DNA from: Bacillota bacterium
GTDB taxonomy: Bacteria > Bacillota > Clostridia > SK-Y3
Reading direction: 5' to 3'
DNA length: 64,000 bases
NCBI GenBank assembly: GCA_022360955.1
Contig: JAKSBV010000309.1
Span: 6,053 to 70,052, forward strand
The notes under the pieces are model-generated. The model had not been told where the DNA came from and did not search any database. It saw only the letters and a list, made by a program, of their open reading frames with translations. The position numbers and the translations under genes were made by a program. Of this stretch, positions 1,565 to 48,345 are shown one piece after another (the first letter of the stretch is position 1; each line of letters starts with the position of its first letter).

Positions 1565-2107
1565 TTACTTATGACCATATTTCAAAACAAATATACTAAT
1601 GATAAAGCCGATTGTACTAATATTGTGAAACCACAGATAGAGATCTTGCAGGCGATTTTTCCACCGGTTTTCATTTTGATTTTTCTTCTTGGCTTTCCCA
1701 TTCAGCATATTATCGATAATCGTAATAATATCATACATCCAATCCGCAATCAAAATCACTGCAATCGCCCGGATGATAAACACATCGACATACACTAGTG
1801 CATATATGAAATAAAGAATAACCATTAAATTCATAGCAATCATAAACCCATATCCCAGCCTGCGTATATTGACCCCTAATATTTCTCCAATATCCGAAAA
1901 TTCCTGATCCGCATCTTCCATTTCAATCTCCTCAATATCTTCTTGCTGCTCCTGAGCGGGTGCGGTTAACCGATTTAAATTCCCGATGGATATAAAAACA
2001 AGGATCAGGGACATTATTACAAAGAATGCCTCTGCATCATAACAAATAATCATAGCAGGAAAAACAATGATCATAAAAATCATCATAAACAAATGTTTAA
2101 CAGACAT
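1565..2107 (-). CDS. hypothetical membrane protein
   Basis: 180-aa ORF with several hydrophobic segments and an acidic loop; RBS-like GTGAGG; no family recognised. Confidence 0.5.
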   Translation of the reverse strand: MSVKHLFMMIFMIIVFPAMIICYDAEAFFVIMSLILVFISIGNLNRLTAPAQEQQEDIEEIEMEDADQEFSDIGEILGVNIRRLGYGFMIAMNLMVILYFIYALVYVDVFIIRAIAVILIADWMYDIITIIDNMLNGKAKKKNQNENRWKNRLQDLYLWFHNISTIGFIISIFVLKYGHK

Positions 2108-2122
2108 AACCTCACATCCAAT

Positions 2123-2704
2123 TTATTTTAGTTTGATTTCCAGAGAATTCCTTATCATGACGGCAACCTCTCCTCTTGTAACCGGCTTATGGACATCTAT
2201 TTCCAAAGCATTCGTAATGCCTAGCTGATCCCCTAACTGCATAAAATTATCCGGCCAGTTTTCACCTTCCACATCATTGGCATAACCTAACGCTCTCACA
2301 AGCATTGTAACCACTTCCGAATACCTGATCTGATTACTCACTTTAAAAGTATCGTCGGGATAACCGGCCACAACGTTCAAGCTATATGCGGTTGCAATAT
2401 AATTGAAGCCCCAGTGATCGGAAGCAACATCGGTAAAAGGGAATGCCTCGGGCACAATAGGATCTTCTTCATAGCCCAGCATTCTGGAAATCACGGCACA
2501 AAATTCTACCCTGCTGATGGGATTTTCCAACCCTAAGCTTCCGTCCGGATAGCCTTTCAACAGGTTCAATGCCACTAACTTATTCACGGCTTCTTCCTGT
2601 ACTGCCGATGTTTCATTCTCTTGCGAAGGGACAGCCGCAGCAGGCCCCAACAGACACACAAAAATTAAGCTTATTACCATTATTCTTATTCTAAAGTTTC
2701 TCAA
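2123..2704 (-). CDS. secreted S-layer homology (SLH) domain protein
   Basis: signal peptide followed by SLH-like modules (LLKGYPDGSLGLENPISRVEF, FTDVASDHWGFNYI, VAGYPDDTFKVSNQIRYSE); start placed at TTG 2704 behind AAGGGAG rather than the track start 2722. Confidence 0.75.
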   Translation of the reverse strand: MRNFRIRIMVISLIFVCLLGPAAAVPSQENETSAVQEEAVNKLVALNLLKGYPDGSLGLENPISRVEFCAVISRMLGYEEDPIVPEAFPFTDVASDHWGFNYIATAYSLNVVAGYPDDTFKVSNQIRYSEVVTMLVRALGYANDVEGENWPDNFMQLGDQLGITNALEIDVHKPVTRGEVAVMIRNSLEIKLK

Positions 2705-2953
2705 AATATTTCTCCCTTTCAAAAATCAGAGGCAAGAAATCGGAAACTAATATTTATTGTTCCGACCCTTTCTTCATCCTCCGTTTTAAATTTTTTAATT
2801 TTCATAAATTAACAACATTATACTACTTTTTTTTTAATGATAAAAGAGAAAATACCATATAGAATAATTATTTAATAAAATTGAAATATTAAATAAGAGA
2901 ATTGCACCATGACCGACCGTCGATTCTTGAATAATATCTAAGGAGGTTATATC

Positions 2954-3451
2954 ATGTCAAAAACAGTTGTAGGCATTTTCGATTCCCAGGATCTTGCCGA
3001 ACAAGCAGCAAGGCAAGTACAGGATAATGGCTTGAGAACCAGTGACATTTCTATTATCGCAAAGGAGAACGATCAACAGGGGAATGAAGAAGCAGGCAGG
3101 TTTACCAACAACAGGGCCGGCGCCAACGATAATGTTTCCGGCGGTGCAGTGACAGGAGGCGTTTTAGGAGGTGTGGCAGGATTACTGCTTGGCATGGGCA
3201 CAATGGTTATTCCCGGGTTGGGCGTTATTGCAGCCGCAGGGCCCATTGCAGGTTTGCTGTCCGGCGCAGTAACAGGCGGCATTGTAGGTGGCCTGGTTGA
3301 CCTGGGTATCCCCGAAGAAGCCGGTCGAAGATATGAATCGGAAATTAAACAAGGAAAAATTTTATGGAGCATGTCCACTGAAGAAAATAATGCCGAACAA
3401 GTGGCTAACATTTTAAGAACTACCGGCGCAGCCAATGTGGAAATACATTAA
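2954..3451 (+). CDS. general-stress-protein-like protein (YflT/GSP17M-type N domain plus glycine-zipper segment)
   Basis: VVGIFDSQDLAEQAARQVQDNGL N-terminus, Gly-rich GGAVTGGVLGGVAGLLLG core, RYESEIKQGKIL C-terminus; strong RBS AAGGAGG. Confidence 0.5.
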   Translation: MSKTVVGIFDSQDLAEQAARQVQDNGLRTSDISIIAKENDQQGNEEAGRFTNNRAGANDNVSGGAVTGGVLGGVAGLLLGMGTMVIPGLGVIAAAGPIAGLLSGAVTGGIVGGLVDLGIPEEAGRRYESEIKQGKILWSMSTEENNAEQVANILRTTGAANVEIH

Positions 3452-3480
3452 TAGTGGGGAGTGGGGGGTAGGGAGTGGGG
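3452..3480 (+). repeat. GGGGAGT-type purine word array, begins 1 nt after a stop codon
   Basis: TAGTGGGGAGTGGGGGGTAGGGAGTGGGG directly follows TAA at 3449-3451. Confidence 0.7.
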
Positions 3481-3491
3481 CGTCAAAAGGA

Positions 3492-3519
3492 GGAAGGTTG
3501 AGTGTACACTCAACCTTCC
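3492..3519 (-). terminator. hairpin between convergent genes, overlaps the acyl-CoA synthetase stop codon
   Basis: GGAAGGTTGAG-tgtaca-CTCAACCTTCC, 11-bp stem; followed by CTCCTTTT on the minus strand. Confidence 0.45.
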
Positions 3520-5237
3520 GGGTGTTCTAAGTATCTTTTGATTTTCTTGGTTGTGGTTTTGGCAAAGTCTTCTTTGCGGATTGTGAAATCCGTCATACGT
3601 TTATAAAGAGGCATTTTGTGGTTTACTTTCTTTACTTCCTCCTCTATTAATGCCCTCACCTGTTGTTCTATATAATCTTTACCCAGTTCTTCTTCTATAG
3701 CTTCAAAATTGGGTAGTATTTGGCCGTTTACATAAGTTTCGCCGCTTTCTTCATCGTATTTGCCCCATACCAAGCTTTCGGCAACATAATCACTTCTGTT
3801 AAGATAGGTTTCCACTTCTTCCGGAAAAATGTTCTTGCCGTTTTTGGTGACAATGACATTCTTCTGTCTGCCTGTAATATGCACGAAGCCCTCTTGGTCA
3901 ATAAATCCCAGATCCCCGGTATGAAACCATCCGTCTCTGATGACTTTTGCAGTGTCGTCTTCGTTCTGAAAATACCCCAGCATGACATTATTCCCTTTGC
4001 AAATAATTTCACCGATTCCTTCTTCATTGGGATTGTCAATCTTTACTTCCATCTCCGCCAGAGGCAATCCGGCCGCATCATCTTTATAGCAACAGTCTCT
4101 ATTGACGGCGACAATAGGAGAACATTCGGTTAAGCCATACCCCTGCACAAGGGAGAAGCCTATGTCCCTAAAGCCCTTGGCAATCATCGGGTCTATACCT
4201 GCTGCTCCGCTGATGAACAACCTTAAATGCCCTCCCAGGGCATTATGAATATTTTTAAATATTTTCTTAGAAATGTCTATGCCTACGCTCTTTAACAAAT
4301 AGCTTGCTTTGATCGCTATGCGCAGTTTGTTGTCCATACCGCTTTTTTCAGCTTGTTTCCATACCTTTTTATACATGGCCTCAAAGATGAGGGGCACCCC
4401 CAGCATCACCGTAACTTTTGCTTCTTTTAGGTTCTTCACAATATGGCGCAGCCCTTCGCAATATGCGATTGTACTGCCTCGATATATTTGACATAAGAAC
4501 CCGCATGTACACTCATAAGCATGGTGTATCGGCAAAACCGAAAGAAAGACATCTTTTTCTCCGATATAAATCATTTTACACATTTCCATTAAATTTGTAC
4601 AAATATTTTTATGGGAAAGCATGACACCCTTCGCCAACGCCGTCGTACCGGAAGTAAAAAGAAGAATCCGCATTTCGTCGGGATCAATGGTCCGGTCGAT
4701 ATAACTTGTATTCCCTTGATTTAATAGCTGCTTCCCTTGCTCTATCAACTTATGAAACGAAACACTCGTATCGGTGCCTTCATCTTCATCCATATTAATG
4801 CGTAACGTTAACCCCGGTAAGGCTGCATTGATACTGTTTATCGATTCTCTATGCTTGCCCGAATAAATAATAACACTTGCCTCGGACACACCGACAAGGT
4901 GCTCTATTTCCTGTACCGGAAGCTCCTTATCCAACGGCACAATTGTTCCCACACCATTTACCACAGCAAGATAAGAAACCGCCCATTCATATCTGTTCTC
5001 GCCTATCAGGGCAATGCGTTTTCCCTGCAGTCCCAAATCCATTAACGCGGTCCCCAACGCTTCCACATCATTTTTAAACTGTTTAAAAGATATGGGCTGA
5101 TAATCATCATTTCCCTTCTCTTTTACCAGAAATGCCGTTTTGTCTCCAAACAGTTGCGTACTTTGCACCAACATCTCTTTCAAGTCCTTAATTTCTCTTA
5201 CCTCATATAATGGTGTATTCGCCCTTTTCATTTTCAA
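3510..5237 (-). CDS. long-chain acyl-CoA synthetase (AMP-forming)
   Basis: LLFTSGTTALAKGVMLSH AMP-binding motif, GYGLTE, TGDLG motifs; 575 aa. Confidence 0.9.
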   Translation of the reverse strand: MKMKRANTPLYEVREIKDLKEMLVQSTQLFGDKTAFLVKEKGNDDYQPISFKQFKNDVEALGTALMDLGLQGKRIALIGENRYEWAVSYLAVVNGVGTIVPLDKELPVQEIEHLVGVSEASVIIYSGKHRESINSINAALPGLTLRINMDEDEGTDTSVSFHKLIEQGKQLLNQGNTSYIDRTIDPDEMRILLFTSGTTALAKGVMLSHKNICTNLMEMCKMIYIGEKDVFLSVLPIHHAYECTCGFLCQIYRGSTIAYCEGLRHIVKNLKEAKVTVMLGVPLIFEAMYKKVWKQAEKSGMDNKLRIAIKASYLLKSVGIDISKKIFKNIHNALGGHLRLFISGAAGIDPMIAKGFRDIGFSLVQGYGLTECSPIVAVNRDCCYKDDAAGLPLAEMEVKIDNPNEEGIGEIICKGNNVMLGYFQNEDDTAKVIRDGWFHTGDLGFIDQEGFVHITGRQKNVIVTKNGKNIFPEEVETYLNRSDYVAESLVWGKYDEESGETYVNGQILPNFEAIEEELGKDYIEQQVRALIEEEVKKVNHKMPLYKRMTDFTIRKEDFAKTTTKKIKRYLEHPEG

Positions 5238-11707: not shown

Positions 11708-11752
11708 TTATACCCCAATCCTTTGTCTAAAGACACTATGCACCTCCCTAGA

Positions 11753-11952
11753 GGGTGTATAAATTCTGGGTGAAGAAAATTATTCCAACAACTGGTATTC
11801 CAAGGCTAAGACCCTGTAAGCTTGCGCCGGGCCGCAGCAAAACTCGCTATCGCTCAAACAGTTGCTGCTTCCTCCCTCTGCTTCGCTAACAGGCTCTAAG
11901 CCTTTCCATAAGGTCATTTCCATAATTTTCTTCACCTACACTAAATACACCC
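11753..11952 (-). mobile_element. F-element, complete short variant (beta end at left, alpha end at right)
   Basis: GGGTGTATAAATTCTGGGTGAAGAAAATTATTCCAACAACTGGTATTCCAAGGCTAAG ... GGTCATTTCCATAATTTTCTTCACCTACACTAAATACACCC; both ends match the ends of the copy at 46493-46728; the centre is a different palindromic stem. Confidence 0.7.
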
Positions 11953-11962
11953 CCTCTGCTTA

Positions 11963-12003
11963 GGTGTATAAATTCTGGTTGAAGAAAATCATTCCAACAA
12001 CTA
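11963..12003 (-). repeat. solo F-element beta terminal repeat, 3' of the Cas12f/TnpB-like gene
   Basis: GGTGTATAAATTCTGGTTGAAGAAAATCATTCCAACAACTA, near-identical to 11754-11794; similarity to other copies stops after CAACAACT. Confidence 0.7.
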
Positions 12004-12012
12004 TATGTCTGC

Positions 12013-12056
12013 AAAAAACAAACAGCCCTCAACAAGATCTCTCTTGTTGAGGGCTG
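12013..12056 (-). terminator. intrinsic terminator downstream of the Cas12f/TnpB-like gene
   Basis: minus strand CAGCCCTCAACAAG-agagat-CTTGTTGAGGGCTG followed by TTTGTTTTTT. Confidence 0.75.
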
Positions 12057-12182
12057 CCGTTACATTGGTCAGATAGCTGCATTTTCATGAACATGTTTAT
12101 GCCCATGCTTACGATGTAAGCTTCAATCCGCCGATAGGACCAATCCCTGCCGGCAGATCATGGTGCAGCAGCAATAACACCA
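12057..12182 (-). ncRNA. hypothetical guide-RNA/omega-RNA-like scaffold in the 3' UTR (unproven)
   Basis: ~125 nt between stop codon and terminator with local hairpins (GCTTAC-gat-GTAAGC 12107-12121; palindrome CTGCCGGCAG 12147-12156); position analogous to TnpB omega RNA. Confidence 0.2.
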
Positions 12183-13793
12183 TTAAATAATTTGTATCAG
12201 CCGATTCAAGTCCTCTGCGCTTTCGAGTTTTTTAATCAGGCTGTACTTTTTCTTAAAATCTTTATGCTTTGTATGTTCTTCAATATTAGTACGAAAATCT
12301 TGTATGATCCTTTCGATTTCATCCCAGAACTCATCCATACAGTGATTGGAATGGTTGGCATAGTAGTTCAGACCCAAGATTTTGTTTGTAAACTTTACAC
12401 CTTTCGGCGTGTTTTCCAGCTTCACTTTCACTGTGCCCTGATAGTGCTGATTCAATCTTCTAGCCAGATTTAAGCTGCCTAATTGTTCAATATCCATCGT
12501 TTTGCCACAAGTCACACATATAAACAGATCCCTGGAAAACCTATTTTGTCCGGTATGCATCCCGCATGCAGGACATGTATAAAAAATGCCCACCGGACTG
12601 ACTCTAATAGGAACAGGCAATCCTTTCTCCGTCAATTTATATTCCAATATTCTTATCAGCTCATTATAGCTGTAAGGGCTTAAAATCGGCATATAGCTTG
12701 TATTGTCCTGGTCTTTCCACTGCAATTTGTCTCCTTTATCATAGAGAGCCTGCATGACCACTTGTGACCGTTCCCGGCAGGCAATATTTACAATCGTATT
12801 GGCCAGTTTATGGATTTCATGCACCGGTAACGGGTAACTGCGGTTTTGTACCCCTGATATGCCGTTTATCAATAGGGCCCCGCTTTCGACCACCTGACTG
12901 TCCTGATCTGCCGCGGTATAATGCACGGGGCTTTTAAGCCCTCTTGCAATCCCCAAATATGTGGTAGTTTCTACCTTTTCAGCCTCTCCTATATCAATGC
13001 TGACGGATAAATAATACTCATTTTTCTTCTTAATAAGCCTTGCCGTTTTCAGCATTTCGGATTTATGCAAGGCCTGCTTCAAATACTTTTCCTGCCAGCG
13101 TCCAAAGGAAAGAGGCAGCAATATAAACCGTTCTTTTCTGCCCGTACTTTCCAACACTTTGGACTCTTTATGGATATAGGTTAGTTCTGCATCCTTTTGA
13201 CCGGGAATTGCTTTTCTGTTTTGATCTTTCACGTTCATCAGGTAAAGCTTTGCATAGTATTTATCATTTTTGCCGTCATACAACAAGCAATAATCCCGAT
13301 TGGTTGCATATCTGCAAAAAAATATCGGCTTAACGCTGGTGCTTTTTGCAATAATTCGCTTGATCTGCCGGTCACATTCATATAAAGGCTGGGCTTCATC
13401 GGTTAACCGTGCCATTGCGTTTTCATACTTGGCTTGCCATTTTTCCTCAGATAAATAGGCAATGGGATAATTGGCATACTGCTGAATCTCGCTTAAACTC
13501 AAATAACTCGCCAGCGTCATCCCAAAATCTATTTTTAACGCATCTTTAAAAGGCTGAACATCAAAGCGATTCAGCTCTTTGCTAAGCCCTTTATCCACCC
13601 ACTTTGCGATAAGGTTGGCCCTATAATTCCCTCTAGCATCCTTATAATCTCTACGGATGTCTTCAATATGCTTACAGGCCTTATCCAGCAGATATTGATA
13701 GGCGCGGGAGTAATTGAGCATCGCTCGCTCCATAATTTCGCGCTTCCGTTTACCGGGATTATGCAGTTTTAAAGTAATCGTCCGCATCGCCAT
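12183..13793 (-). CDS. Cas12f/TnpB-superfamily protein with substituted RuvC triad (predicted nuclease-dead RNA-guided DNA-binding protein)
   Basis: TITLKLHNPGKRK N-terminus, FGRWQ motif, GIARGLKSPV (RuvC-I with Ala for Asp), VVMQAL (RuvC-II with Gln for Glu), YTCPACG...FICVTCG zinc ribbon, DIEQLGSLNLARR (RuvC-III with Glu for Asp); ~89-aa C-terminal tail. Confidence 0.8.
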   Translation of the reverse strand: MAMRTITLKLHNPGKRKREIMERAMLNYSRAYQYLLDKACKHIEDIRRDYKDARGNYRANLIAKWVDKGLSKELNRFDVQPFKDALKIDFGMTLASYLSLSEIQQYANYPIAYLSEEKWQAKYENAMARLTDEAQPLYECDRQIKRIIAKSTSVKPIFFCRYATNRDYCLLYDGKNDKYYAKLYLMNVKDQNRKAIPGQKDAELTYIHKESKVLESTGRKERFILLPLSFGRWQEKYLKQALHKSEMLKTARLIKKKNEYYLSVSIDIGEAEKVETTTYLGIARGLKSPVHYTAADQDSQVVESGALLINGISGVQNRSYPLPVHEIHKLANTIVNIACRERSQVVMQALYDKGDKLQWKDQDNTSYMPILSPYSYNELIRILEYKLTEKGLPVPIRVSPVGIFYTCPACGMHTGQNRFSRDLFICVTCGKTMDIEQLGSLNLARRLNQHYQGTVKVKLENTPKGVKFTNKILGLNYYANHSNHCMDEFWDEIERIIQDFRTNIEEHTKHKDFKKKYSLIKKLESAEDLNRLIQII

Positions 13794-13812
13794 AAGAATC
13801 TTCCTTGTATCC

Positions 13813-13842
13813 AGTGGGGAGATAGGAGTAGGGGGTGGGGAG
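13813..13842 (+). repeat. GGGGAGT-type word array (G-rich on plus strand) in the 5' UTR region of the Cas12f/TnpB-like gene
   Basis: AGTGGGGAGATAGGAGTAGGGGGTGGGGAG; complementary in character to 13987-14023; contains hairpin GGGTGGG-gaga-CCCACCC at 13833-13850. Confidence 0.7.
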
Positions 13843-13944: not shown

Positions 13945-13986
13945 GTATTATTCGTTGATAAGGGACAATGGGGTAAGAGCGAGGTT

Positions 13987-14023
13987 CTCACTCCCCGCTC
14001 CCCACACCTCACTCCCCACTAAC
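13987..14023 (-). repeat. GGGGAGT-type purine word array immediately 3' of adhE (purine-rich on the sense/minus strand)
   Basis: minus strand GTTAGTGGGGAGTGAGGTGTGGGGAGCGGGGAGTGAG, starting 6 nt after the adhE TAG. Confidence 0.7.
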
Positions 14024-14029
14024 AAACAC

Positions 14030-16633
14030 CTATTTCCCAAATGCTTTCACATATACTTCTTCAAGTTCTTTAACCAATGGTAGCCTCGGGTTAGCTGTGG
14101 TACACTGATCTTCGAAAGCTTTATCGGCCAGTTCGCCCACGTTTGCCATAAACAGCTTTTTATCCACGCCGCATTCCGCGATGGTCGCAGGTATATTAAC
14201 CGCTTTCATTAAATCTTTAATGGCTTTGATTAAGCTCTTAACCCCTTCTTCGACGGTTGAGGCCGGTAATCCCAGCGCTTTTGCGATTTCCGCATACTTC
14301 TTGTCCGCAATAAAGGTCTCATATTTGGGGAAAGATACAAACTTCGTCGGTTTCTGCGCATTATACGCTACGACGTGGGGCAGCAAAATAGCATTTGCTC
14401 TTCCGTGGGGGATATGATACTCTCCGCCCAATTTGTGTGCAAGGCTGTGATTGATGCCCAAGAATGCATTCGTAAAGGCCATTCCGGCGATACAGGACGC
14501 ATTGTGCATTTTTTCTCTTGCAACACGGTCATTCCCGTCTTTATAGGCCTTTGGCAGGTATTCAAATACCATTTGAATCGCCTTCATGGCCAAGGCATCG
14601 GTATAATCGGAAGCCAAAATCGAAACATAAGCTTCAATTGCGTGGGTTAATACATCCATACCCGTATCTGCGGTAACCGAAGCCGGTACTGTCATTACAA
14701 ACTCTGGATCTATAATGGCAACATCCGGGGTTAGTTCATAGTCCGCAAGGGGATATTTTACATTTTTCTGTTTATCTGTGATCACCGCAAAGGAAGTAAC
14801 CTCCGAACCCGTTCCCGATGTGGTGGGAATGGCCACCATTTTTGCTTTTTTGCCCAGTTTGGGGAATTTAAATACCCTTTTTCTAATGTCCATAAACTTC
14901 AGGCGTAAAGCATTAAAGTCCGTTTCAGGATGTTCATAGAACAACCACATGCCCTTAGCCGCGTCCATTGCAGAACCGCCGCCTAATGCAATAATCACAT
15001 CGGGCTGGAACTTATTCATTGCATCGCAGCCTTTCATAACCGTTTCTACCGATGGGTCCGGCTCTACTTCGGAGAATATTTCGCAGTGTACATATTGTTC
15101 TCTTTTTCTGAGATAGTACAGTACTTTATCCACATATCCCAATTTCACCATGTATGGGTCGGTAACAATCAGTGCTTTAGTGATATCGGGCATTTTTTCA
15201 AGATACTGTGTTGAACCGTATTCAAAGTAAATCTTTTCCGGAATCTTAAACCACTGCATATTTACTCTTCTCCTTGCCACTCTCTTTTTATTAATCAAAT
15301 TAACTGCCGATACGTTGGAAGTTGTGGAGTTTCTTCCGAAAGAGCCGCATCCCAGTGTCAATGACGGTATGTTGGTATTGTACAAATCTCCGATTGCACC
15401 ATGGGTAGAAGGTGAGTTAATAATCAGTCTGCCCGCTTTGATTCTCTTGGAGAAGGCTTCAATCACCTGCTGATTTTCGGAATGGATAACTGCCGAATGC
15501 CCCAAGCCTCCGAATTCAACCATTTCTTCCACCCGTTTAATCCCTTGTTCCGCATCTTTTACGACATAGTAGGCCAGTATCGGGCTTAATTTTTCCCGGG
15601 ATAACGGATATTCCGCTCCGACTCCTTCCAATTGTGCAATTAAAATCTTAGTATCTTTGGGTACGTTCAATCCGGCCATCTGCGCAATATTATATGCCGA
15701 CTGACCTACAACCGCAGCATTCATTACGCCTTTCTTTTCATCAATGGCAACTTTCTCTAATTTCGGAATTTCTTCTTTACTTAAAAAGTAGCACTGATGC
15801 TCTTTCATGAAGTTCTCAAATTCTTTGGAGATTTCTTTGTCTACAATCACGGCCTGTTCCGATGCACAGATCATACCATTGTCAAAGGTCTTGGACAGAA
15901 TAAGATCGGTAGCCGCTCTTTTCACATTGACCGATTTCTCAATATAGCACGGTACATTTCCAGGTCCTACGCCAAGTGCCGGCTTTCCGCTGCTATATGC
16001 CGCTTGCACCATCCCTGAACCGCCTGTTGCAAGTATCAATGCTACACTGGAATGGTTCATCAACGCCTGTGTCGCTTCCAGGGAAGGCTGCTCTATCCAT
16101 AAAATACAATCTTCCGGCGCCCCGGCGTCAATAGCCGCATCTCTTACCACACGCGCCGCTTCTGCACTGCACTTTTGCGCCGAAGGATGAAATGCAAATA
16201 TAATCGGGTTCCTGGTCTTCATTGCAATAATGCATTTAAACATGGTAGTGGACGTGGGATTGGTTACCGGGGTAACCCCTGCTACAACGCCTATCGGCTC
16301 CGCAACTTCTACATAATCCTCTAATTCGTTTTCATGGATGATCCCAACCGTCTTGTCATACTTAATGTTATTATAAATATATTCTGTTGCAAATATGTTT
16401 TTAGTGATTTTATCTTCATAGACCCCTCGTCCGGTTTCTTCAACAGCCATTTTCGCCAAACGCATATGGTCGTCCAAACCGGCCATCGCCATCGCTTTTA
16501 CAATCGCATCCACCTGATGCTGATCTAAAGCCATAAATTTATCTAACGCGATTTGTGCTTTTGAAACCAGCGTATCAACGGTTTGCTGTGCATTGTTTTC
16601 TTGTGGTTTTTGCTTGCTTACTTTTTCTGCCAT
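14030..16633 (-). CDS. adhE: bifunctional acetaldehyde-CoA / alcohol dehydrogenase
   Basis: 867 aa; N-terminal aldehyde dehydrogenase domain (catalytic Cys context NGMICASEQ) fused to an iron-type alcohol dehydrogenase (GGGSAMDAAK, HxxxH region). Confidence 0.97.
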   Translation of the reverse strand: MAEKVSKQKPQENNAQQTVDTLVSKAQIALDKFMALDQHQVDAIVKAMAMAGLDDHMRLAKMAVEETGRGVYEDKITKNIFATEYIYNNIKYDKTVGIIHENELEDYVEVAEPIGVVAGVTPVTNPTSTTMFKCIIAMKTRNPIIFAFHPSAQKCSAEAARVVRDAAIDAGAPEDCILWIEQPSLEATQALMNHSSVALILATGGSGMVQAAYSSGKPALGVGPGNVPCYIEKSVNVKRAATDLILSKTFDNGMICASEQAVIVDKEISKEFENFMKEHQCYFLSKEEIPKLEKVAIDEKKGVMNAAVVGQSAYNIAQMAGLNVPKDTKILIAQLEGVGAEYPLSREKLSPILAYYVVKDAEQGIKRVEEMVEFGGLGHSAVIHSENQQVIEAFSKRIKAGRLIINSPSTHGAIGDLYNTNIPSLTLGCGSFGRNSTTSNVSAVNLINKKRVARRRVNMQWFKIPEKIYFEYGSTQYLEKMPDITKALIVTDPYMVKLGYVDKVLYYLRKREQYVHCEIFSEVEPDPSVETVMKGCDAMNKFQPDVIIALGGGSAMDAAKGMWLFYEHPETDFNALRLKFMDIRKRVFKFPKLGKKAKMVAIPTTSGTGSEVTSFAVITDKQKNVKYPLADYELTPDVAIIDPEFVMTVPASVTADTGMDVLTHAIEAYVSILASDYTDALAMKAIQMVFEYLPKAYKDGNDRVAREKMHNASCIAGMAFTNAFLGINHSLAHKLGGEYHIPHGRANAILLPHVVAYNAQKPTKFVSFPKYETFIADKKYAEIAKALGLPASTVEEGVKSLIKAIKDLMKAVNIPATIAECGVDKKLFMANVGELADKAFEDQCTTANPRLPLVKELEEVYVKAFGK

Positions 16634-16786: not shown

Positions 16787-16804
16787 TTGTTAAATATTTA
16801 TCAA
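16787..16804. promoter_or_regulatory. Rex-like operator upstream of adhE
   Basis: TTGTTAAATATTTATCAA, 17 of 18 matches to TTGTTAAnnnnTTAACAA. Confidence 0.5.
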
Positions 16805-16826
16805 TCCCTATTATCATTATACGGCA

Positions 16827-16844
16827 TTGTTAAAATTTTGTCAA
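16827..16844. promoter_or_regulatory. weak Rex-like half-palindrome upstream of adhE
   Basis: TTGTTAAAATTTTGTCAA; good left half, poor right half. Confidence 0.3.
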
Positions 16845-16900: not shown

Positions 16901-16980
16901 CTCTAAATGGCATTTATAGTTGAATAAAAACCGTAGCACCCATCCGCTTATTTGGTCAAACGTATTTTAAGCTGTCAAAT
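16901..16980. mobile_element. MITE-A repeat, degenerate internal fragment without termini
   Basis: ctctaaatggcatttatagttgaataaaaaccg...tatttggtcaaacgtattttaag aligns with the reverse complement of the copy at 62118-62221. Confidence 0.45.
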
Positions 16981-17050: not shown

Positions 17051-18223
17051 CTAATAATACTCCATCCGGACTTCTTTCCCCATGCTTTCTAAACACTTGG
17101 CAATTTCTTTTACCAGCTTGAGCTTGATGCTCAAGTCCAAAGGAAGGTCCGGGTTCTGGTGGGCAGGGTTCATAGCCCTTCCAACAAAAAAATGTATCTT
17201 CGTGCCTTGCTCCAGCAAAATCTTCGCCATGCGGGAAGCACCGTCTTTTCGGTTTAGTTTGAGAATGTCTTTCATAGTACTTTGATCGGATTCATACATC
17301 TTTATATAGTCCAACGTTTTGCCCAAGGTCAGTACGCCCTCTGTGGCCAAATCTATGCCCTCTATTTCTGCGGTAGGCGGTATGGACGGATTAAAATAAT
17401 TAAAGTTTGTCACCATCGCCTTGCCCAATTCCCGGCTTACAATTTGTGAGGTCGTACCTCCGCACACAATTTTTTTGCCTTTTTCATCCATAAATCGGTT
17501 CACTACATAACGATCTTCGGACCTTTTCACCGGCGGTCCCACCATTACAGCCACTTGCAGCGGCTTCCTCACTTTGATGGCTACAACCGTAGTATCATCC
17601 CCGGGTTTTTGCATATATAGATTATCACAAACCGATAACAGCAGCTTTGCAATATTTTTTGCCGTCATTTCTTGTTTATACACCCTCTGAATATATTCTT
17701 TGACGTTATCCCACTGCCATCCTAAATTCAAGGTTCCTCCGATACCCGCGTGCATGACACCGTCACTGGTCATAATAAACATATCCCCGGGTACAACAGT
17801 GAACCGGCTCTCATTAATCACTTTGCCGTGAATGTTCCGCTGCTGCTTTTGCAGATCGGCAAAACAACCTTTTCTCACGAAAAATACGGAAGGATTGTCG
17901 AATTCCACCAGGTATGCATCACCCGTATTAAAAATCTGCAATATGGAAAACGTTGAATATGCGATCCCTCTTTCCTTACACTCCGGCAGCGTACTGGCAA
18001 TCGTTTCTACCGCTTCCTCGATATTTTCGCCGTTCACCAGCATTGTGCCTATAATCTTACTTGTCAGTGTGGCCAATATATTGGCTTTTACACCACTGCC
18101 CAATCCATCGGCCAGTACGACAATGACAGATTTTTCATTTCGCATGATTTCGATTTTATCACCGCATAATTCTTCATTGTATTTGTTCAAGCTTTCAAAG
18201 CTTGTTTCGACAAATAAGCTCAT
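17051..18223 (-). CDS. PP2C/SpoIIE-family serine phosphatase
   Basis: ELCGDKIEI...VLADGLGSGVKANILA and TSDGVMHAG motifs; ATGA overlap with the upstream hydrogenase-like gene. Confidence 0.85.
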   Translation of the reverse strand: MSLFVETSFESLNKYNEELCGDKIEIMRNEKSVIVVLADGLGSGVKANILATLTSKIIGTMLVNGENIEEAVETIASTLPECKERGIAYSTFSILQIFNTGDAYLVEFDNPSVFFVRKGCFADLQKQQRNIHGKVINESRFTVVPGDMFIMTSDGVMHAGIGGTLNLGWQWDNVKEYIQRVYKQEMTAKNIAKLLLSVCDNLYMQKPGDDTTVVAIKVRKPLQVAVMVGPPVKRSEDRYVVNRFMDEKGKKIVCGGTTSQIVSRELGKAMVTNFNYFNPSIPPTAEIEGIDLATEGVLTLGKTLDYIKMYESDQSTMKDILKLNRKDGASRMAKILLEQGTKIHFFVGRAMNPAHQNPDLPLDLSIKLKLVKEIAKCLESMGKEVRMEYY

Positions 18224-19941
18224 TTGTCCTCCCCTGCGTCCGCTAAAATTGAATGTTTAAGGTTGGTAAGCGCCATCTTGGTCTCTGCCGTTGTCTCTCC
18301 TAGCAGACTGGCGATTTCCTGTGCTACACGCATCTGCTTTTCAATGACCTTCTGAGCAATATCGACTGTTTCCGAACGCATCTTATACAATTGCCGCTGC
18401 TGTTTTTCTTCTTTGGACACATCTCTAATAAGGGCAATGATCAATTGTTGATCTTTAATGTATAGAATAGACTGTTCTACGGTCTTATTATATTTTTCAT
18501 AGTAGTATTTTCTATTCAAAATATTTTCGCCGGTCTCTTGGACACATTCAAAATCGGAACAATCCAATACATTATATATATGTTTTCCTACGATATCCTC
18601 TTGCCCTAATCGGAAAAGCTGTTGTGCCGCCGGGTTGAAAGTCTGTATACATAATTCCTCATTCAAGGCCAGAATCGCATTGGGTGTCGAATGTATAATG
18701 ATATTTGAAATAGATTCCGCCCTCTCTCTCATATAGGGCAAACACATGTGCAATTCCGCTTTATGGTGATATACGGCAATAGCTTTTTCTCTACAGGTGG
18801 AGTATCCGCAAGCACCGCAGTTCAGCTCTTTTGCCTGACTCGACTTCCCTATTTTGCCGAGTATTTCCCTTATTGTCTCTTCATCGGGCATGGGATAATT
18901 TTTGGACCTGTCGACAAAATGCTTGGATAAATCGACATTGATATCCGCAGCCACGGTGAGCTTTCCGTCTTTTCGACTGCTTTTTACATACTCAATCAGT
19001 TTTTCCCTCGCCTTTAACAAACCGCCCTTAATCGGTTTGATGCAGGAACCTCCCAGGCAGCTTCCCTCACATGCATTCATCTCAACAAAATGTTCGGTGA
19101 TTTCGCCTTCTGCCATTGCGCCCAAGACGTGTATGCACCGCTCTATGCCGTCTATGCTTACACATCTGTATTTTGTGCCTCTGTCCTTGCTCAATGTTTT
19201 GATAATGCCGCCGGGCGCCGGATAAAATCTCGCGATTTCATTTTTAAAGCCCTTTATCTCTCCGGCATTGTCGGCGTCCAAATCGACACCTTCACTTTCC
19301 ATCCAATCGGCCAGTTCTTCAAAAGTAATAATGGCATCTACTGCGCCTTCGTGCTGCAAATCGTTGCACTCCGCCTTTTTAGACAAACAGGGCCCTATAA
19401 ACACCACTTTGATTCTTGGTCCATAGACTGCACGCATCATTTTGGCATGTGCGATCATAGGCGATACAACCGGGGCCATTTGTTCAATGAGCACCGGATA
19501 ATATCTTTCAATTAATGAAACAGCCGTGGGACATGCCGTCGTGATGATATTCTTCATTTGACCCTGCTTTAAAAGCCTTTGATATTCTTTTGTTACCTGG
19601 GCCGCACCTATCGCCGTTTCTTCCACATGGGTAAAACCCCAATTTTTTAAAACCGCAAATATTTTTCTGTTATCCTGCATTGAGAAAACTGAAACAAAGG
19701 AAGGTGCAAGACTGACATACACCTTTTCTTTCTTCTCTATATAGGCCTTGACTTTGTCAATATCACTTCGGACACTCTTTGCATTCTGCGGACATACCCG
19801 CAAACACTTGCCGCACAATACGCATTCATCCTCTACGATTTGCGCCTGTTCTTCATTAAAAGTGATGGCATTCACGGGGCAGCTGCGAATACATTTATAA
19901 CAATTTTTGCAATTAGCCTTTTTAAATCGAATAATCCCCAC
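18220..19941 (-). CDS. sensory-type [FeFe]-hydrogenase-like protein with PAS domain (HydS-like, group C)
   Basis: two N-terminal 4Fe-4S ferredoxin motifs; H-cluster motifs TTACPTAV (Ala in place of the proton-relay Cys), GPCLSKKAE, EMNACEGSCLGGS; extra CGACGYSTC...C cluster motif; C-terminal PAS. Start set at GTG 19941 behind GGGGAGG. Confidence 0.85.
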   Translation of the reverse strand: MGIIRFKKANCKNCYKCIRSCPVNAITFNEEQAQIVEDECVLCGKCLRVCPQNAKSVRSDIDKVKAYIEKKEKVYVSLAPSFVSVFSMQDNRKIFAVLKNWGFTHVEETAIGAAQVTKEYQRLLKQGQMKNIITTACPTAVSLIERYYPVLIEQMAPVVSPMIAHAKMMRAVYGPRIKVVFIGPCLSKKAECNDLQHEGAVDAIITFEELADWMESEGVDLDADNAGEIKGFKNEIARFYPAPGGIIKTLSKDRGTKYRCVSIDGIERCIHVLGAMAEGEITEHFVEMNACEGSCLGGSCIKPIKGGLLKAREKLIEYVKSSRKDGKLTVAADINVDLSKHFVDRSKNYPMPDEETIREILGKIGKSSQAKELNCGACGYSTCREKAIAVYHHKAELHMCLPYMRERAESISNIIIHSTPNAILALNEELCIQTFNPAAQQLFRLGQEDIVGKHIYNVLDCSDFECVQETGENILNRKYYYEKYNKTVEQSILYIKDQQLIIALIRDVSKEEKQQRQLYKMRSETVDIAQKVIEKQMRVAQEIASLLGETTAETKMALTNLKHSILADAGEDK

Positions 19942-19942
19942 G

Positions 19943-20188
19943 CTATAACCTCCCCAGAATACACTCTTTGAACTTTTCTTCAACATTCGATACCGTAATC
20001 CCTTCAATGAAGTCGTTTTCTACCTTGACGGAAACACCCTGCGTACAATGTCCCAGACAAAAAGAAGCCTTTAGTTCAATCTTCTGCTCCAGTCCGTATT
20101 CCTTTATAAGCCTTTGGAATGTTTGTATAATGTGATGGGAACCTTTTAGGTGACATGAGCTCCCCACACATATATAAACCTGCAGCAT
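19943..20188 (-). CDS. thioredoxin-like [2Fe-2S] ferredoxin domain protein
   Basis: CVGSSC...CLGHC cysteine pattern (NuoE/HndA-like); start at ATG 20188 behind GGGGGTG. Confidence 0.7.
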   Translation of the reverse strand: MLQVYICVGSSCHLKGSHHIIQTFQRLIKEYGLEQKIELKASFCLGHCTQGVSVKVENDFIEGITVSNVEEKFKECILGRL

Positions 20189-20231: not shown

Positions 20232-20249
20232 TTGTTAAATATTTAACGA
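20232..20249. promoter_or_regulatory. Rex-like operator upstream of the ferredoxin/HydS/PP2C operon
   Basis: TTGTTAAATATTTAACGA, 17 of 18 matches to TTGTTAAnnnnTTAACAA; 44 bp upstream of the first start codon. Confidence 0.55.
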
Positions 20250-20402
20250 TTATTATTATAAAATACTGTTAAATCATTGTCAATGACATAGAAACTATTA
20301 TTGATACGGTTTTTGTATAAATTATTATTTAGATACGGTTTTTCAAGCAAAAACACCCCACTTCTTCAGGCAGGGTAATTGATCTCATTATAAAAATCAA
20401 AT

Positions 20403-20750
20403 TTAATCAAAAAATTTCCCCTTATAAAAATTCTCATTGCCAAGTTTCTTTGCCGTCAGTCTGAACATGACGCAGCCATCTGGACATACAATGTCCTTGC
20501 TATATTTATCATTGCCGCCAATGTTCTCTAAATCTCCGCCACTTCTAACCGACTCCATGATTGGGAACATACTCATCATAACCTTGGAACAGATACCTTG
20601 TCCATCCGAATTTGTGGGACAGCCATAGGTGCAGGTATACTTATCCCCCACTTCCTCACCGTTTCGGCAGTACCGCTCTGTGCGGTCACTGCGAAGAAAC
20701 CCAGTTACCTCAATCTCAAATTCGTACTCCTCATCATACCATTTTTTCAT
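20403..20750 (-). CDS. TIGR04076-like small cysteine-rich protein
   Basis: GDKYTCTYGCP...ICSKVMMSMFPIMESVRSGGDL...VCPDGCVMFRL pattern as remembered for TIGR04076; strong RBS GGAGG. Confidence 0.55.
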   Translation of the reverse strand: MKKWYDEEYEFEIEVTGFLRSDRTERYCRNGEEVGDKYTCTYGCPTNSDGQGICSKVMMSMFPIMESVRSGGDLENIGGNDKYSKDIVCPDGCVMFRLTAKKLGNENFYKGKFFD

Positions 20751-22198: not shown

Positions 22199-22501
22199 TA
22201 TCATTCTATGGACCGGAGATCGGAGGTCAGAAGGCGGAGGTCGGAATCTGACCCAACAGGAGCACAAAGTAATCAACAGCAAGGTGGCATGAACGGTAGG
22301 CGGTTCATTCTCACCCCTCATCTCTCAGCCCTCAACTACTTTTTAGCCTTGGAATATCAGTTGTTGGATACTGAACTTTAAAATTGAATTTATATTTGAA
22401 CAAACAATGTAGAACCCTCATTGTTTGTTTAAATGAATTTTAAGGTATAAAGTTCGGTATCTTTGTTGGAATCATTTTCTTCACCCAGCATTTATACACC
22501 C
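22199..22501 (+). mobile_element. F-element lacking a recognisable alpha terminus and interrupted by a MITE-A copy
   Basis: arm1 GGAGATCGGAGGTCAGAAGGCGGAGGTCGGAAT, core CAGGAGCACAAAGTAATCAACAGCAAGGTGG, arm2 ...CTCTCAGCCCTCAAC and beta repeat TTGTTGGAATCATTTTCTTCACCCAGCATTTATACACCC align with 46493-46728. Confidence 0.7.
22367..22464. mobile_element. MITE-A repeat nested inside the F-element beta repeat
   Basis: GATACTGAACTTTAAAA ... ATAAAGTTCGGTATC splits CCTTGGAATATCAGTTGTTG / TTGTTGGAATCATTTTC, which is contiguous in the copy at 46676-46705. Confidence 0.75.
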
Positions 22502-46492: not shown

Positions 46493-46728
46493 GGGTGTAT
46501 TCAGTGTAGGTGAAGAAATTTATGGAAATGACCTTATATACCGGAGGTCGGAGATCAGAGGGCGGAAGTCGGAATATAACCAAACAGGGACGCAAAGTAA
46601 TCATAGACAAGCGTATCGTAAATGGTGGGTGGTCCATTCTCACCTCTCATCTCTCAGCCCTCAACTATTTTTTAGCCTTGGAATATCAGTTATTGGAATA
46701 ATTTTCTTCACTTCAAATTTATGTGCCC
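46493..46728 (+). mobile_element. F-element, complete copy with 9-bp target-site duplication
   Basis: alpha end GGGTGTATTCAGTGTAGGTGAAGAAATTTATGGAA, beta end (reverse complement) GGGCACATAAATTTGAAGTGAAGAAAATTATTCCAA; flanked by TTTTTTCAC at 46484-46492 and 46729-46737. Confidence 0.85.
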
Positions 46729-48168: not shown

Positions 48169-48345
48169 GGATATATAAATTCCTGTTGAAGAAGATTATT
48201 TGACCAAATAATATTCCAAGGTCAAAAAATAGTTTAAGGCTGAGGGCTGAACATGAACGGCCCACCGCTCATACTTTACTCTTTATTCTACAATCACTCA
48301 TAACCTAATTCTTAATTATTCATTATTCATTATTAATTATTCTTT
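48169..48345 (-). mobile_element. F-element, diverged copy without alpha terminus, 3' of dnaX
   Basis: GGATATATAAATTCCTGTTGAAGAAGATTATTTGACCAAATAATATTCCAAGGTCAAAAAATAGTTTAAGGCTGAGGGCTGAAC aligns with the reverse complement of 46640-46728; ends in an AT-rich word array. Confidence 0.6.

What the first reader, a model, noticed from the sequence alone, without database searches (positions are those of the whole stretch)
11943..12182. Candidate guide-RNA locus 3' of the dead nuclease, with two testable models for the guide
Seen: between the stop codon (12183) and the terminator lie about 125 nt with local hairpins. These include GCTTAC-gat-GTAAGC (12107-12121) and the palindrome CTGCCGGCAG (12147-12156). 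A 14-bp-stem terminator with a U-tract follows (12013-12056), then the beta repeat, which ends at 11963.

Established: the TnpB omega RNA runs from the ORF 3' end to the element's right end, and the guide is the flanking DNA. Cas12f tracrRNAs lie next to the gene and can contain internal U-runs.

Inference, model 1: the RNA ends at the terminator and the guide is the last ~20 nt before the hairpin (about 12057-12080).

Inference, model 2: the RNA reads through to the beta terminus and the guide is the flank at 11943-11962 (TAAGCAGAGG followed by GGGTGTATTT). That flank is the alpha terminus of the neighbouring F-element, so one guide would match many alpha ends in the genome.

I cannot discriminate between the models from sequence alone.
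Basis: inference. Interest (0 to 1): 0.7.

Follow-up and report, generated by a model that had tools for sequence, protein, structure and literature searches.

The report
Guide RNA of a dead TnpB regulator
The stretch after the dead nuclease gene encodes a conserved, knotted partner RNA whose short 3' tail probably steers the protein to DNA sites in front of hydrogen-sensing and fermentation genes, which suggests how these bacteria may link hydrogen sensing to gene control.

Summary
Window 12184-12071 (- strand) encodes a structured RNA, followed by a 12-nt linker and a strong terminator (12058-12021).

A covariance model finds exactly one copy, directly 3' of the gene, in 79 of 81 genomic loci. 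Covariation supports two stems and a pseudoknot. No Rfam family matches.

The protein has a Cas12f/TnpB fold, and the first RuvC aspartate is lost in every homologue aligned. In about 70 of 80 loci it is the last gene of an operon: 2Fe-2S protein, HydS-like sensory [FeFe] hydrogenase, PP2C phosphatase, and sometimes adhE.

Model 2 (read-through to the repeat) is not supported. Model 1 is roughly right but mis-set. GCAGC (12080-12076) is the pseudoknot strand, and the guide most likely starts at the near-invariant UAUCU (12075-12071). In most homologues the terminator hairpin begins 0-8 nt later, so the guide is very short.

A DNA motif AAACC-N-TATCT(A) is 12-fold enriched and strand-specific near these loci. 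It occurs twice just upstream of the window's hydS promoter. It co-varies with the RNA tail in three lineages, and one metagenomic locus shows a 14/14 match.

The H2-sensing link and the direction of regulation are inferred, not shown.

The parts
12183..13793 (-). Gene for a 536-aa nuclease-dead TnpB/Cas12f-like protein
   Evidence: Pfam PF07282 TNB domain at 1.8e-7. NCBIfam guided_TnpB at 2.6e-17, below its cut-off. AlphaFold model with pLDDT 87; best Foldseek hits are Cas12f (7wju, E 9.5e-16), CasX, TnpB and dCas12f. RuvC-I Asp is replaced by A283 (GIARG) and is never acidic in 22 homologues. RuvC-II Glu is Q347 here and variable in the family.
12076..12184 (-). Scaffold of the partner RNA. 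P1 is 12183-12177 with 12166-12160. Pseudoknot 5' strand GCUGC is at 12172-12168. P2 is 12159-12125, P3 is 12121-12107 and P4 is 12106-12087. Pseudoknot 3' strand GCAGC is at 12080-12076.
   Evidence: Covariance model R1 scores 72 bits here (E 3e-18) and finds no other copy in the window. It finds one copy per locus in 79 of 81 sources. On 78 distinct sequences there are 179 double-change cells against 57.5 +/- 10.7 in shuffles. Pseudoknot pairs read GC 67 / AU 10 and CG 67 / UA 6. No Rfam family matches.
12071..12075 (-). Near-invariant single-stranded UAUCU, proposed as the seed and start of the guide
   Evidence: UAUCU in 68 of 81 tails (UAUUU 7, UAUCC 3, UAUCA 2, UGUUU 1). It sits between the pseudoknot and the terminator and was unpaired in the folds of the downstream stretch. 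It is identical to the pentamer that follows AAACC-N in the DNA operator, and it co-varies with that pentamer in three lineages.
12059..12070 (-). Variable linker GACCAAUGUAAC, a possible extension of the guide in this organism
   Evidence: Identical in the 98%-identical relative L081. Only GAC is shared with L001-L004. No match in the 64-kb window beyond chance.
12011..12058 (-). Intrinsic terminator: stem 12058-12021 and U-tract 12020-12011. This is the 3' end of the RNA and of the gene's transcript.
   Evidence: 17-pair stem plus T-run. A homologous hairpin begins 0-8 nt after UAUCU in about 70 of 79 loci, and its arms change in a compensatory way.
20325..20341 (-). Distal operator-like site AAACCG|TATCTAAATAA upstream of the hydS operon promoter
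   Evidence: The motif A[AT]ACCNTATCT occurs 22 times on the operon strand and 0 times on the other strand in 80 loci, against 1.8 expected from shuffles.
20296..20312 (-). Proximal operator-like site AAACCG|TATCAATAATA. It lies 29 nt after the distal site and ends 12 nt before the -35 box.
   Evidence: Tandem pairs with 30- and 42-nt spacing occur at the same place in L004 and L003.
20232..20283 (-). hydS operon promoter: -35 TTGACA at 20283-20278, -10 TATAAT at 20260-20255, and a Rex-box-like TTGTTAAATATTTAACGA at 20232-20249
   Evidence: 12 of 12 match to the sigma-70 consensus. Repeat D14. Rex-type k-mers are the commonest upstream of hydS operons.
17051..20188 (-). Upstream operon genes: 2Fe-2S thioredoxin-like protein (19943-20188), HydS-like sensory [FeFe] hydrogenase with PAS domain (18220-19941) and SpoIIE/PP2C phosphatase (17051-18223)
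   Evidence: Pfam hits. Annotation of L081. Conserved order upstream of the dead TnpB gene, with HydS in 64 loci and PP2C in 70 loci. ORFs.
14030..16633 (-). adhE, inserted between the PP2C gene and the dead TnpB gene. It has its own promoter (-35 at 16839-16844, -10 at 16816-16821) and a Rex-like box at 16787-16804.
   Evidence: adhE holds this position in 13 loci of several clades.

Best explanation
Window 12184-12011 (- strand) is the gene for the dedicated partner RNA of a domesticated, nuclease-dead TnpB/Cas12f-like protein.

Shown:
- The RNA has a roughly 109-nt scaffold: stem P1, whose loop forms a pseudoknot with GCAGC next to the 3' tail; a variable stem P2; a conserved C-NGA-G hairpin P3; and a variable stem P4.
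- After the scaffold come the single-stranded tail UAUCU-GACCAAUGUAAC and an intrinsic terminator, which ends the RNA.
- The RNA-protein pair is conserved as a unit across Clostridia. It sits as the last gene of an operon encoding a HydS-type sensory [FeFe] hydrogenase and a PP2C phosphatase.

Inferred:
- The guide starts at UAUCU (12075). It pairs with DNA sites of the form 5'-AAACC-N-TATCT(A/G)-3', where AAACC-N acts as the target-adjacent motif.
- Usually only about 5-9 nt pair, although one relative reaches 14 nt.
- In this window the best candidate targets are the two tandem sites just upstream of the -35 box of the hydS operon promoter (20341-20325 and 20312-20296). The ribonucleoprotein would then autoregulate the hydS-PP2C-(adhE)-dTnpB operon.
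- In relatives it would also regulate hydCB, ldh and a small Cys-rich gene.
- Its activity is plausibly set by HydS/PP2C signalling.

Whether it represses or activates cannot be told from sequence.
For: Partner RNA:
- One copy per locus, always directly 3' of the gene and on the same strand, in 79 of 81 genomic sources and 36 of the 46 metagenomic loci. There is only one copy in the window.
- Covariation of P1, P3 and the pseudoknot far exceeds the shuffled and slid controls.
- Fold z-score is -5.8.

Protein:
- Full-length Cas12f/TnpB fold, with the RuvC-I Asp lost family-wide.

3' end of the RNA:
- A terminator follows 0-8 nt after UAUCU in about 70 of 79 loci.

Guide and operator:
- A[AT]ACCNTATCT occurs 22 times on the operon strand and 0 times on the other strand, against 1.8 expected.
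- It sits in promoter regions of the hydS operon (window, L003, L004, L011, L012, L014, L019, L034, L079). It also sits 115-195 nt before hydC/hydB, ldh and the 90-aa c6 gene.
- The operator pentamer equals the RNA tail pentamer. They change together in the Caproiciproducens-like clade (UAUUU/TATTT in L072-75, L108, L111, L113), in L069 (UAUCA/TATCA) and in L077 (UAUCC/TATCC). Permutation gives P = 7e-4, not corrected for phylogeny.
- In L092 the tail UAUCUAUAAAAUAA matches 14 of 14 bases of AAACCA|TATCTATAAAATAA inside its own hydS gene. The motif-proximal end faces the promoter. Wiegand et al. report that orientation as effective for TldR roadblocks.
- Guides of 9-11 nt are documented for oppF-associated TldRs.

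Operon context:
-.
Against: - The window's own sites share only 5 nt (TATCT) and 4 nt (TATC) with its tail. The conserved G at tail position 6 faces an A in the site, which allows at best a G-T wobble.
- Across loci, matches between a tail and its own sites are no longer than matches to tails from other loci, apart from the shared 5-7 nt and L092.
- Counter-examples exist. L008, L009 and L049 have TATTT, TATTA or TATAT sites with UAUCU tails, and L007 has a TATCA site with a UAUCC tail.
- About 45 loci, such as those of Ruminiclostridium, show no such site within +/-4 kb.
- The DNA motif stays conserved (AATAAT) beyond the part the RNA can explain.
- A 5-7 bp R-loop would be shorter than any documented case.
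- The window sites lie upstream of a perfect consensus promoter, so a roadblock is impossible there.
- There are no expression or binding data.
Confidence: 0.55

Rival explanations
1. Classical guide, the reader's Model 1 taken literally. UAUCU belongs to the scaffold. The guide is the variable stretch after it (12070 downward, running into the terminator arm). It targets a fully complementary site somewhere outside this 64-kb window.
For: The window clade has an unusually long single-stranded linker of 12 nt here and 4-11 nt in L001-L004. It is identical in the 98% relative L081. In L092 the match continues 9 nt past UAUCU.
Against: In 19 of 79 loci the hairpin starts no more than 1 nt after UAUCU, and in about 70 loci within 8 nt. 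The hairpin arms co-vary with each other, as in an ordinary terminator. The linker has no anchored match above chance in the window or in +/-4 kb of 80 loci. This model does not explain why operator and tail pentamers co-vary.
Confidence: 0.15
2. Structural cofactor only. The RNA is kept because the protein needs it to fold, and it guides nothing. The AAACC-N-TATCTAATAAT element is read by protein alone, either this protein's TAM-reading surface or an unrelated transcription factor. The identity with UAUCU is coincidence.
For: The shared stretch is only 5-7 nt. Matches to a locus's own tail are no longer than matches to other tails. The DNA motif is conserved beyond the RNA-matching part. There are several counter-examples to covariation. 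The terminator abuts the tail.
Against: There are three independent tail/operator co-changes. L092 has a 14/14 match with a correct AAACCA flank; the expected number of such matches over all loci is about 0.01-0.1 before the flank is required (my estimate from sequence length and composition, for the hit). The tail lies exactly where TnpB and Cas12f RNAs carry their guide, directly after the pseudoknot.
Confidence: 0.2
3. Transcription reads through the terminator to the end of the beta repeat (11963). The guide is the flank at 11943-11962, which matches many repeat termini.
For: The repeat termini (GGGTGTAT...) are multi-copy in the window.
Against: A strong terminator of 17 pairs plus a U-run lies in between. 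None of the 125 loci from other organisms carries the repeats after the RNA, and the conserved unit ends at the terminator. The repeats have terminal inverted repeats, as MITEs do, not IS200/IS605-type ends (I24). Between the window and L081 the repeat is the fastest-changing stretch.
Confidence: 0.02
4. A protein-independent 3'-UTR element, such as an mRNA stabiliser or cis-regulatory structure, that happens to follow this gene.
For: It may be co-transcribed with the gene. No separate consensus promoter was found on this strand.
Against: It is coupled to this gene family across genomes whose downstream genes are unrelated. Its pseudoknot-plus-tail layout is typical of TnpB and Cas12f guide RNAs. 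It keeps conserved single-stranded sequence motifs.
Confidence: 0.05

Closest known systems
TldR (TnpB-like nuclease-dead repressors) with adjacent guide RNAs (Wiegand et al. 2023/2024, bioRxiv 10.1101/2023.11.30.569447; Xiao et al. 2026, 10.64898/2026.09.22.753285)
   Same: - Domesticated TnpB-family protein with a broken RuvC site.
- No transposase and no transposon ends.
- Stable association with host genes.
- Guide RNA encoded directly 3' of the gene.
- Short guide (9-11 nt in oppF-TldR).
- Candidate targets flanked by a motif in promoter regions of the associated operon.
   Different: - The protein is larger (about 490-545 aa) and closest in fold to Cas12f.
- The RNA does not overlap the ORF and ends in a terminator hairpin that abuts the guide.
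- The first five guide bases are nearly invariant family-wide.
- The putative motif AAACC-N is not T-rich.
- It is associated with a HydS/PP2C operon, not with fliC, oppF or csrA. The TldR preprint does not contain 'hydrogenase', 'phosphatase', 'SpoIIE' or 'adhE', and no paper in the library holds both 'hydrogenase' and 'TldR'.
TnpB omega RNA (IS200/IS605, e.g. ISDra2)
   Same: A scaffold of about 100 nt with several stems and a pseudoknot next to the guide. The guide is at the 3' end. The protein reads a motif 5' of the target.
   Different: - This RNA is not in a transposon.
- The scaffold starts at or after the stop codon and does not lie inside the ORF.
- The guide is fixed rather than set by the transposon flank.
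- The nuclease is dead.
dCas12f-sigmaE RNA-guided transcription (Hoffmann et al., Nature 2026, PMC13472631)
   Same: A nuclease-dead Cas12f-like protein with a guide RNA encoded downstream. It regulates itself and host metabolic or transport genes. The window's candidate sites lie upstream of the transcription start, as in activation.
   Different: - No sigma factor is encoded here; the partners are HydS and a PP2C phosphatase.
- Those guides are 14-16 nt with a 5'-G motif.
- That system is from Bacteroidetes, not Clostridia.
- Here a perfect sigma-70-type promoter is present.
HydS / hfsABCD putative H2-sensing systems (Zheng et al. 2014 as cited in PMC5707799; PMC13104023)
   Same: A group-C type [FeFe] hydrogenase with a C-terminal FeS cluster and PAS domain sits next to a Ser/Thr phospho-signalling gene. 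It has a genetic link to adhE and fermentation balance.
   Different: No output regulator is known for these systems. The hfs operon of Thermoanaerobacterium ends in hfsD, not in a TnpB-like gene.

Membership tests
TldR-type RNA-guided nuclease-dead TnpB regulators | TnpB-family fold with an inactivated RuvC catalytic triad | tested here: met
   Foldseek and HMMER hits to Cas12f and TnpB. RuvC-I Asp is Ala in the window protein and never acidic in the 22 sequences of alignment A1. RuvC-II is variable, and RuvC-III is mostly Glu or Asp.
TldR-type RNA-guided nuclease-dead TnpB regulators | Loss of transposon context (no tnpA, no ends) and stable association with non-transposon genes | tested here: met
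   Conserved order HydS - PP2C - (adhE) - dTnpB in about 64-70 of 80 loci. Genes downstream are not conserved.
TldR-type RNA-guided nuclease-dead TnpB regulators | Adjacent non-coding guide RNA with a conserved scaffold | tested here: met
   Covariance model R1 finds one copy per locus, with covariation.
TldR-type RNA-guided nuclease-dead TnpB regulators | Guide complementary to a motif-flanked target in the promoter region of the associated genes | tested here: inconclusive
   AAACC-N-TATCT sites are enriched, strand-specific and lie at promoters. Covariation is seen in three lineages, and L092 has a 14/14 match. The window shares only 4-5 nt, and matches to a locus's own tail are no better than to other tails.
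TldR-type RNA-guided nuclease-dead TnpB regulators | RNA-dependent DNA binding and transcriptional repression | not testable with these tools
   Needs RIP-seq, ChIP-seq and reporter assays.
TnpB omega RNA | Scaffold overlaps the 3' end of tnpB and ends at the transposon right end; the guide is the flanking DNA | tested here: not met
   The scaffold starts at the stop codon here and 0-120 nt after it in relatives. There is no transposon end. The tail is followed by a terminator.
CRISPR-Cas12f (type V-F) with tracrRNA and crRNA | CRISPR array and tracrRNA next to the effector gene | tested here: not met
   There is no repeat array in the window. A single RNA with a fixed tail is present.
Any Rfam 15 family | Match at or above the gathering score | tested here: not met
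   The only gathering-level hit in the window is SRP RNA. Region 11900-12400 gives only sub-threshold noise.
HydS-type sensory [FeFe] hydrogenase operon | Fe_hyd_lg_C plus a C-terminal FeS domain plus PAS, next to a Ser/Thr phospho-signalling gene | tested here: met
   Pfam PF02906, PF04060 and PF00989 on 18220-19722, and SpoIIE PF07228 on 17051-18223. This domain layout is described for group C HydS in PMC13104023.

The most novel reading that the evidence does not exclude
The RNA-protein pair is the missing output of the HydS hydrogen sensor. HydS senses H2 and the PP2C phosphatase relays the signal. The dead Cas12f/TnpB-like ribonucleoprotein then reads AAACC-N-TATCT operators through a 5-14 nt hard-wired guide, and so sets transcription of the sensor operon, bifurcating hydrogenase, ldh and (through operon context) adhE. 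This would be the first RNA-guided transcription factor placed under a gas-sensing phospho-relay. It would also have the shortest natural guide known.
Probability: 0.35. Interest if true: 0.9.

Novelty: new variant of a known kind. Interest (0 to 1): 0.75.

Why it matters
Nuclease-dead TnpB relatives acting as RNA-guided transcription factors were described only in 2023-2026, and for flagellin, peptide-transport and sigma-E contexts.

This clade is widespread in Clostridia: 162 homologues and 126 loci were retrieved here. It is welded to the HydS/PP2C operon.

The signalling output of that operon has been an open question since HydS was proposed as an H2 sensor. Recent literature still calls the enzymes 'putative sensory' (PMC13104023). 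The hfsB-adhE regulatory link is also unexplained (PMC5707799).

The finding turns that question into concrete experiments, with a defined RNA, a defined operator and defined mutations.

It also shows an unusual guide design: a family-wide fixed seed that abuts a terminator hairpin. That design bears on how short a natural guide can be, and on the engineering of compact regulators and of ethanol/H2 balance in cellulolytic Clostridia.

Tried and rejected
1. I searched for targets of the variable linker (GACCAAUGUAAC and longer) in the window, exactly and with up to 2 mismatches, and in +/-4 kb of 80 loci. Nothing rose above chance.

2. The 11-mer CAGCCCTCAAC in the terminator arm matches three copies of repeat D12. 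The expected number of such hits is about 1, and the three copies amount to one event, so I treated it as chance.

3. I looked for extra orphan copies of the RNA in the window and in the loci. None were found.

4. MAFFT plus RNAalifold recovered only P1 and P3. P2 and P4 vary too much in length to align, so they rest on single-sequence folds.

5. AACCATATCTATTGAC at 43963 (- strand) looked like an operator but lies inside a coding region. Other ACCGTATC hits in the window are also coding.

6. I tested whether guides match their own loci better than foreign loci beyond the shared heptamer. They do not, except in L092.

7. No domain could be assigned to the PP2C C-terminal 170 aa, the 90-aa c6 protein, the 115-aa Cys-rich ORF or the C-terminal 95 aa of the dTnpB.

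8. I could not check whether this clade appears in the TldR paper's data sets, because no supplements are held. Accession searches found nothing. Zheng et al. 2014 is not held.

9. L081 is too close to the window to map the 3' boundary by synteny break.

Full report
**1. The observation**

- GCTTAC-ATC-GTAAGC lies at 12121-12107.
- CTGCCGGCAG lies at 12156-12147.
- A 17-pair hairpin at 12058-12021 is followed by TGTTTTTTGC.
- A 40-nt repeat copy lies at 11963-12002.

The 175-nt stretch folds at -74 kcal/mol, against -49.5 +/- 4.2 for shuffles, a z-score of -5.8.

**2. The protein**

ORF 12183-13793 (-) encodes 536 aa.

- It hits the Cas12f1-like TNB zinc-ribbon domain. It also hits TnpB, Cas12e and C2c8 models below their cut-offs.
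- An AlphaFold model (pLDDT 87) aligns over its full length with Cas12f, CasX, TnpB and dCas12f structures. The best hit is 7wju at E 9.5e-16.
- HMMER alignments to TnpB 9nzp and AsCas12f place A283 (GIARG) at the RuvC-I aspartate.
- In 22 homologues that position is never acidic, and it is followed by an invariant Arg.
- The RuvC-II position is Q here and E, Q, K, H or Y elsewhere. RuvC-III is mostly E or D.

The whole family is therefore nuclease-dead. The family holds 162 proteins at E <= 1e-3, all from Clostridia-type genomes and metagenomes.

**3. The RNA**

Downstream of the stop codon, all homologous loci carry the same sequence pattern. It reads GGUGYUUUUGCUGCCGCACC ... CUUAC-NGA-GUAAG ... 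AAAGNGCAGCUAUCU, and then sequence identity collapses.

A covariance model built from 26 copies gave these results:

- It scores the window copy (12184-12071) at 72 bits and finds no second copy in 64 kb.
- It finds exactly one copy, always directly 3' of the gene on the same strand, in 79 of 81 genomic sources.
- It finds one in 36 of the 46 metagenomic loci.

Pair counts on 78 distinct sequences show 179 double-change cells, against 57.5 +/- 10.7 in shuffles, and far more than any slid register.

- P1 pairs GGUGY with RCACC.
- P3 is paired in 100% of cells in the seed alignment.
- A pseudoknot joins GCUGC in the P1 loop to GCAGC next to the tail. Compensatory variants GCUAC/GUAGC (10 sequences) and GCUGU/ACAGC (6 sequences) support it.
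- P2 (12159-12125) and P4 (12106-12087) vary in sequence and length but fold in the window RNA.

No Rfam family matches and there is no CRISPR array. This is an omega-RNA-like scaffold, but unlike TnpB omega RNA it does not overlap the ORF.

**4. Where the RNA ends**

In about 70 of 79 loci a terminator hairpin starts 0-8 nt after the final U of UAUCU. Its arms change in a compensatory manner between relatives.

The repeats beyond it (the composite at 11750-12002) belong to MITE-like families scattered through this window. They recur only in the 98%-identical L081 and L082. Between the window and L081 they carry 5 substitutions in about 40 nt, while the tail carries none.

Model 2 is therefore rejected.

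**5. Where the guide is**

A classical 16-20-nt variable guide does not fit, because most family members have no room for one.

- The window's linker GACCAAUGUAAC has no target in the window.
- The linkers of 80 loci have no anchored match above chance within +/-4 kb.

The near-invariant single-stranded UAUCU (68 of 81 tails) sits exactly where TnpB and Cas12f RNAs begin their guide, directly after the pseudoknot.

A DNA element AAACC-N-TATCT(A)(A) carries the same pentamer.

- A[AT]ACCNTATCT occurs 22 times on the operon strand and never on the other strand in 712 kb, against 1.8 expected.
- It lies in the promoter region of the hydS operon. It is a tandem pair in the window (29 nt apart), in L004 (30 nt) and in L003 (42 nt). 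It is single in L011, L012, L014, L019, L034 and L079.
- It also lies 115-195 nt upstream of hydC/hydB-like genes (L002, L004), ldh (L013) and a 90-aa Cys-rich gene (L017, L026, L030, L035, L043).

Where the RNA tail deviates, the DNA deviates with it.

- UAUUU pairs with AAACCA-TATTT in L072-L075, L108, L111 and L113.
- UAUCA pairs with TATCA in L069.
- UAUCC pairs with TATCC in L077.
- A naive permutation gives P = 7e-4. With phylogeny taken into account, this amounts to three independent events.

In the metagenomic locus L092 the tail UAUCUAUAAAAUAA matches 14 of 14 bases of AAACCA|TATCTATAAAATAA. That site lies inside the PAS-coding part of its own hydS gene, on the coding strand. Its motif-proximal end faces the promoter, the orientation reported as effective for TldR roadblocks.

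**6. Caveats**

- The window's own sites (20341-20325 and 20312-20296) share only TATCT and TATC with the tail.
- The clade-conserved tail UAUCUGAC meets A at position 6, which is at best a wobble.
- Run-lengths against a locus's own tail are no longer than against other tails, apart from the shared heptamer and L092.
- L007, L008, L009 and L049 are counter-examples.
- About 45 loci show no site within +/-4 kb.
- The DNA motif is conserved (AATAAT) beyond what the RNA explains.

The guide assignment is therefore the best-supported reading, at about 0.55, and is not proven.

**7. Context and mechanism**

In about 64-70 of 80 loci the dead TnpB gene is the last gene of an operon. The operon order is:

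- a 2Fe-2S thioredoxin-like protein;
- a HydS-like hydrogenase (Fer4, Fe_hyd_lg_C, C-terminal FeS, PAS);
- a SpoIIE/PP2C phosphatase.

In 13 loci of different clades, including the window, adhE is inserted before the dead TnpB gene.

The window's hydS promoter is a 12/12 consensus (-35 at 20283-20278, -10 at 20260-20255). A Rex-type box lies over the start region. The two operator-like sites lie between the upstream terminator and the -35 box, centred near -55 and -84.

That position fits activation or occlusion of the UP element. It does not fit a roadblock, whereas L092 fits a roadblock. The sign of regulation is therefore open.

It is an inference from operon membership that HydS and PP2C control the RNP.

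**8. Comparison with the literature**

- TldRs are nuclease-dead TnpB relatives with adjacent guide RNAs. Their guides are 9-11 nt in the oppF clade and target motif-flanked promoter sites. The described clades associate with oppF, fliC and csrA/fliC.
- dCas12f-sigmaE uses 14-16-nt guides and a 5'-G motif.
- No paper in the library links TldR or TnpB with hydrogenase, HydS or PP2C.
- HydS enzymes are still called putative sensors with untested signalling.
- Deleting hfsA or hfsB raises adhE expression by an unknown route.

**9. Verdict**

The finding is real.

The guide starts at 12075, and GCAGC belongs to the scaffold.
- Model 2 is wrong.
- The system is a new variant of the TldR kind. It has a distinctive RNA design and a potentially important physiological link.

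Noticed in passing
window 20232-20249 and 16787-16804: Rex-box-like operators lie at the hydS operon promoter (TTGTTAAATATTTAACGA) and the adhE promoter (TTGATAAATATTTAACAA). Rex-type k-mers are the commonest words upstream of hydS operons in 59 loci. These operons therefore seem to be under both Rex control and the putative RNP control.
   Followed up: partly
L092 3453-3472 (hydS ORF 2101-3819) and L092 6602-6615: The guide tail of this metagenomic relative matches 14 of 14 bases of a site with an AAACCA flank, inside the PAS-coding part of its own hydS gene. This suggests autoregulation by roadblock in that lineage.
   Followed up: partly
window 11750-12002, also 422-457, 22466-22501, 46494-46728 and 48170-48209: These are MITE-like repeats with terminal inverted repeats (GGGTGTAT...). 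They are organism-specific and unrelated to the RNA, and a composite copy sits just after the terminator.
   Followed up: partly
window 13809-13836 and 13985-14022; also 3449, 27862 and 48025: G-rich AGTGGGG-type repeats form an inverted pair in the adhE-dTnpB intergenic region. Their role is unknown.
   Followed up: no
window 20403-20750 (-); L017 5849-6121 and relatives: Two small Cys-rich proteins have no Pfam family. One is a 115-aa ORF just upstream of the hydS operon. The other is a roughly 90-aa gene (cluster c6), which in at least five loci (L017, L026, L030, L035, L043) is preceded by the AAACC-N-TATCT operator. Both are candidate regulon members.
   Followed up: partly
L001, L002, L005, L007, L016, L017, L022, L026, L050, L053 and the window: adhE is inserted between the PP2C gene and the dead TnpB gene in loci of several clades. 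This echoes the unexplained hfsB-adhE regulatory link in Thermoanaerobacterium.
   Followed up: partly
window 16941-16957 (-): TTTGACCAAATAAGCGG, upstream of the adhE promoter, shares 12 of 17 bases with the tail, but the seed is not matched. This is probably chance.
   Followed up: partly
window 51446-51710 (-): Bacterial large SRP RNA (Rfam RF01854, 218.8 bits).
   Followed up: no
L081 11775-12476 and 18666-19367: The 98%-identical relative carries Cas6-like genes a few kb downstream of the RNA, where the window has an ABC sugar transporter. Synteny therefore breaks shortly after the repeats.
   Followed up: no
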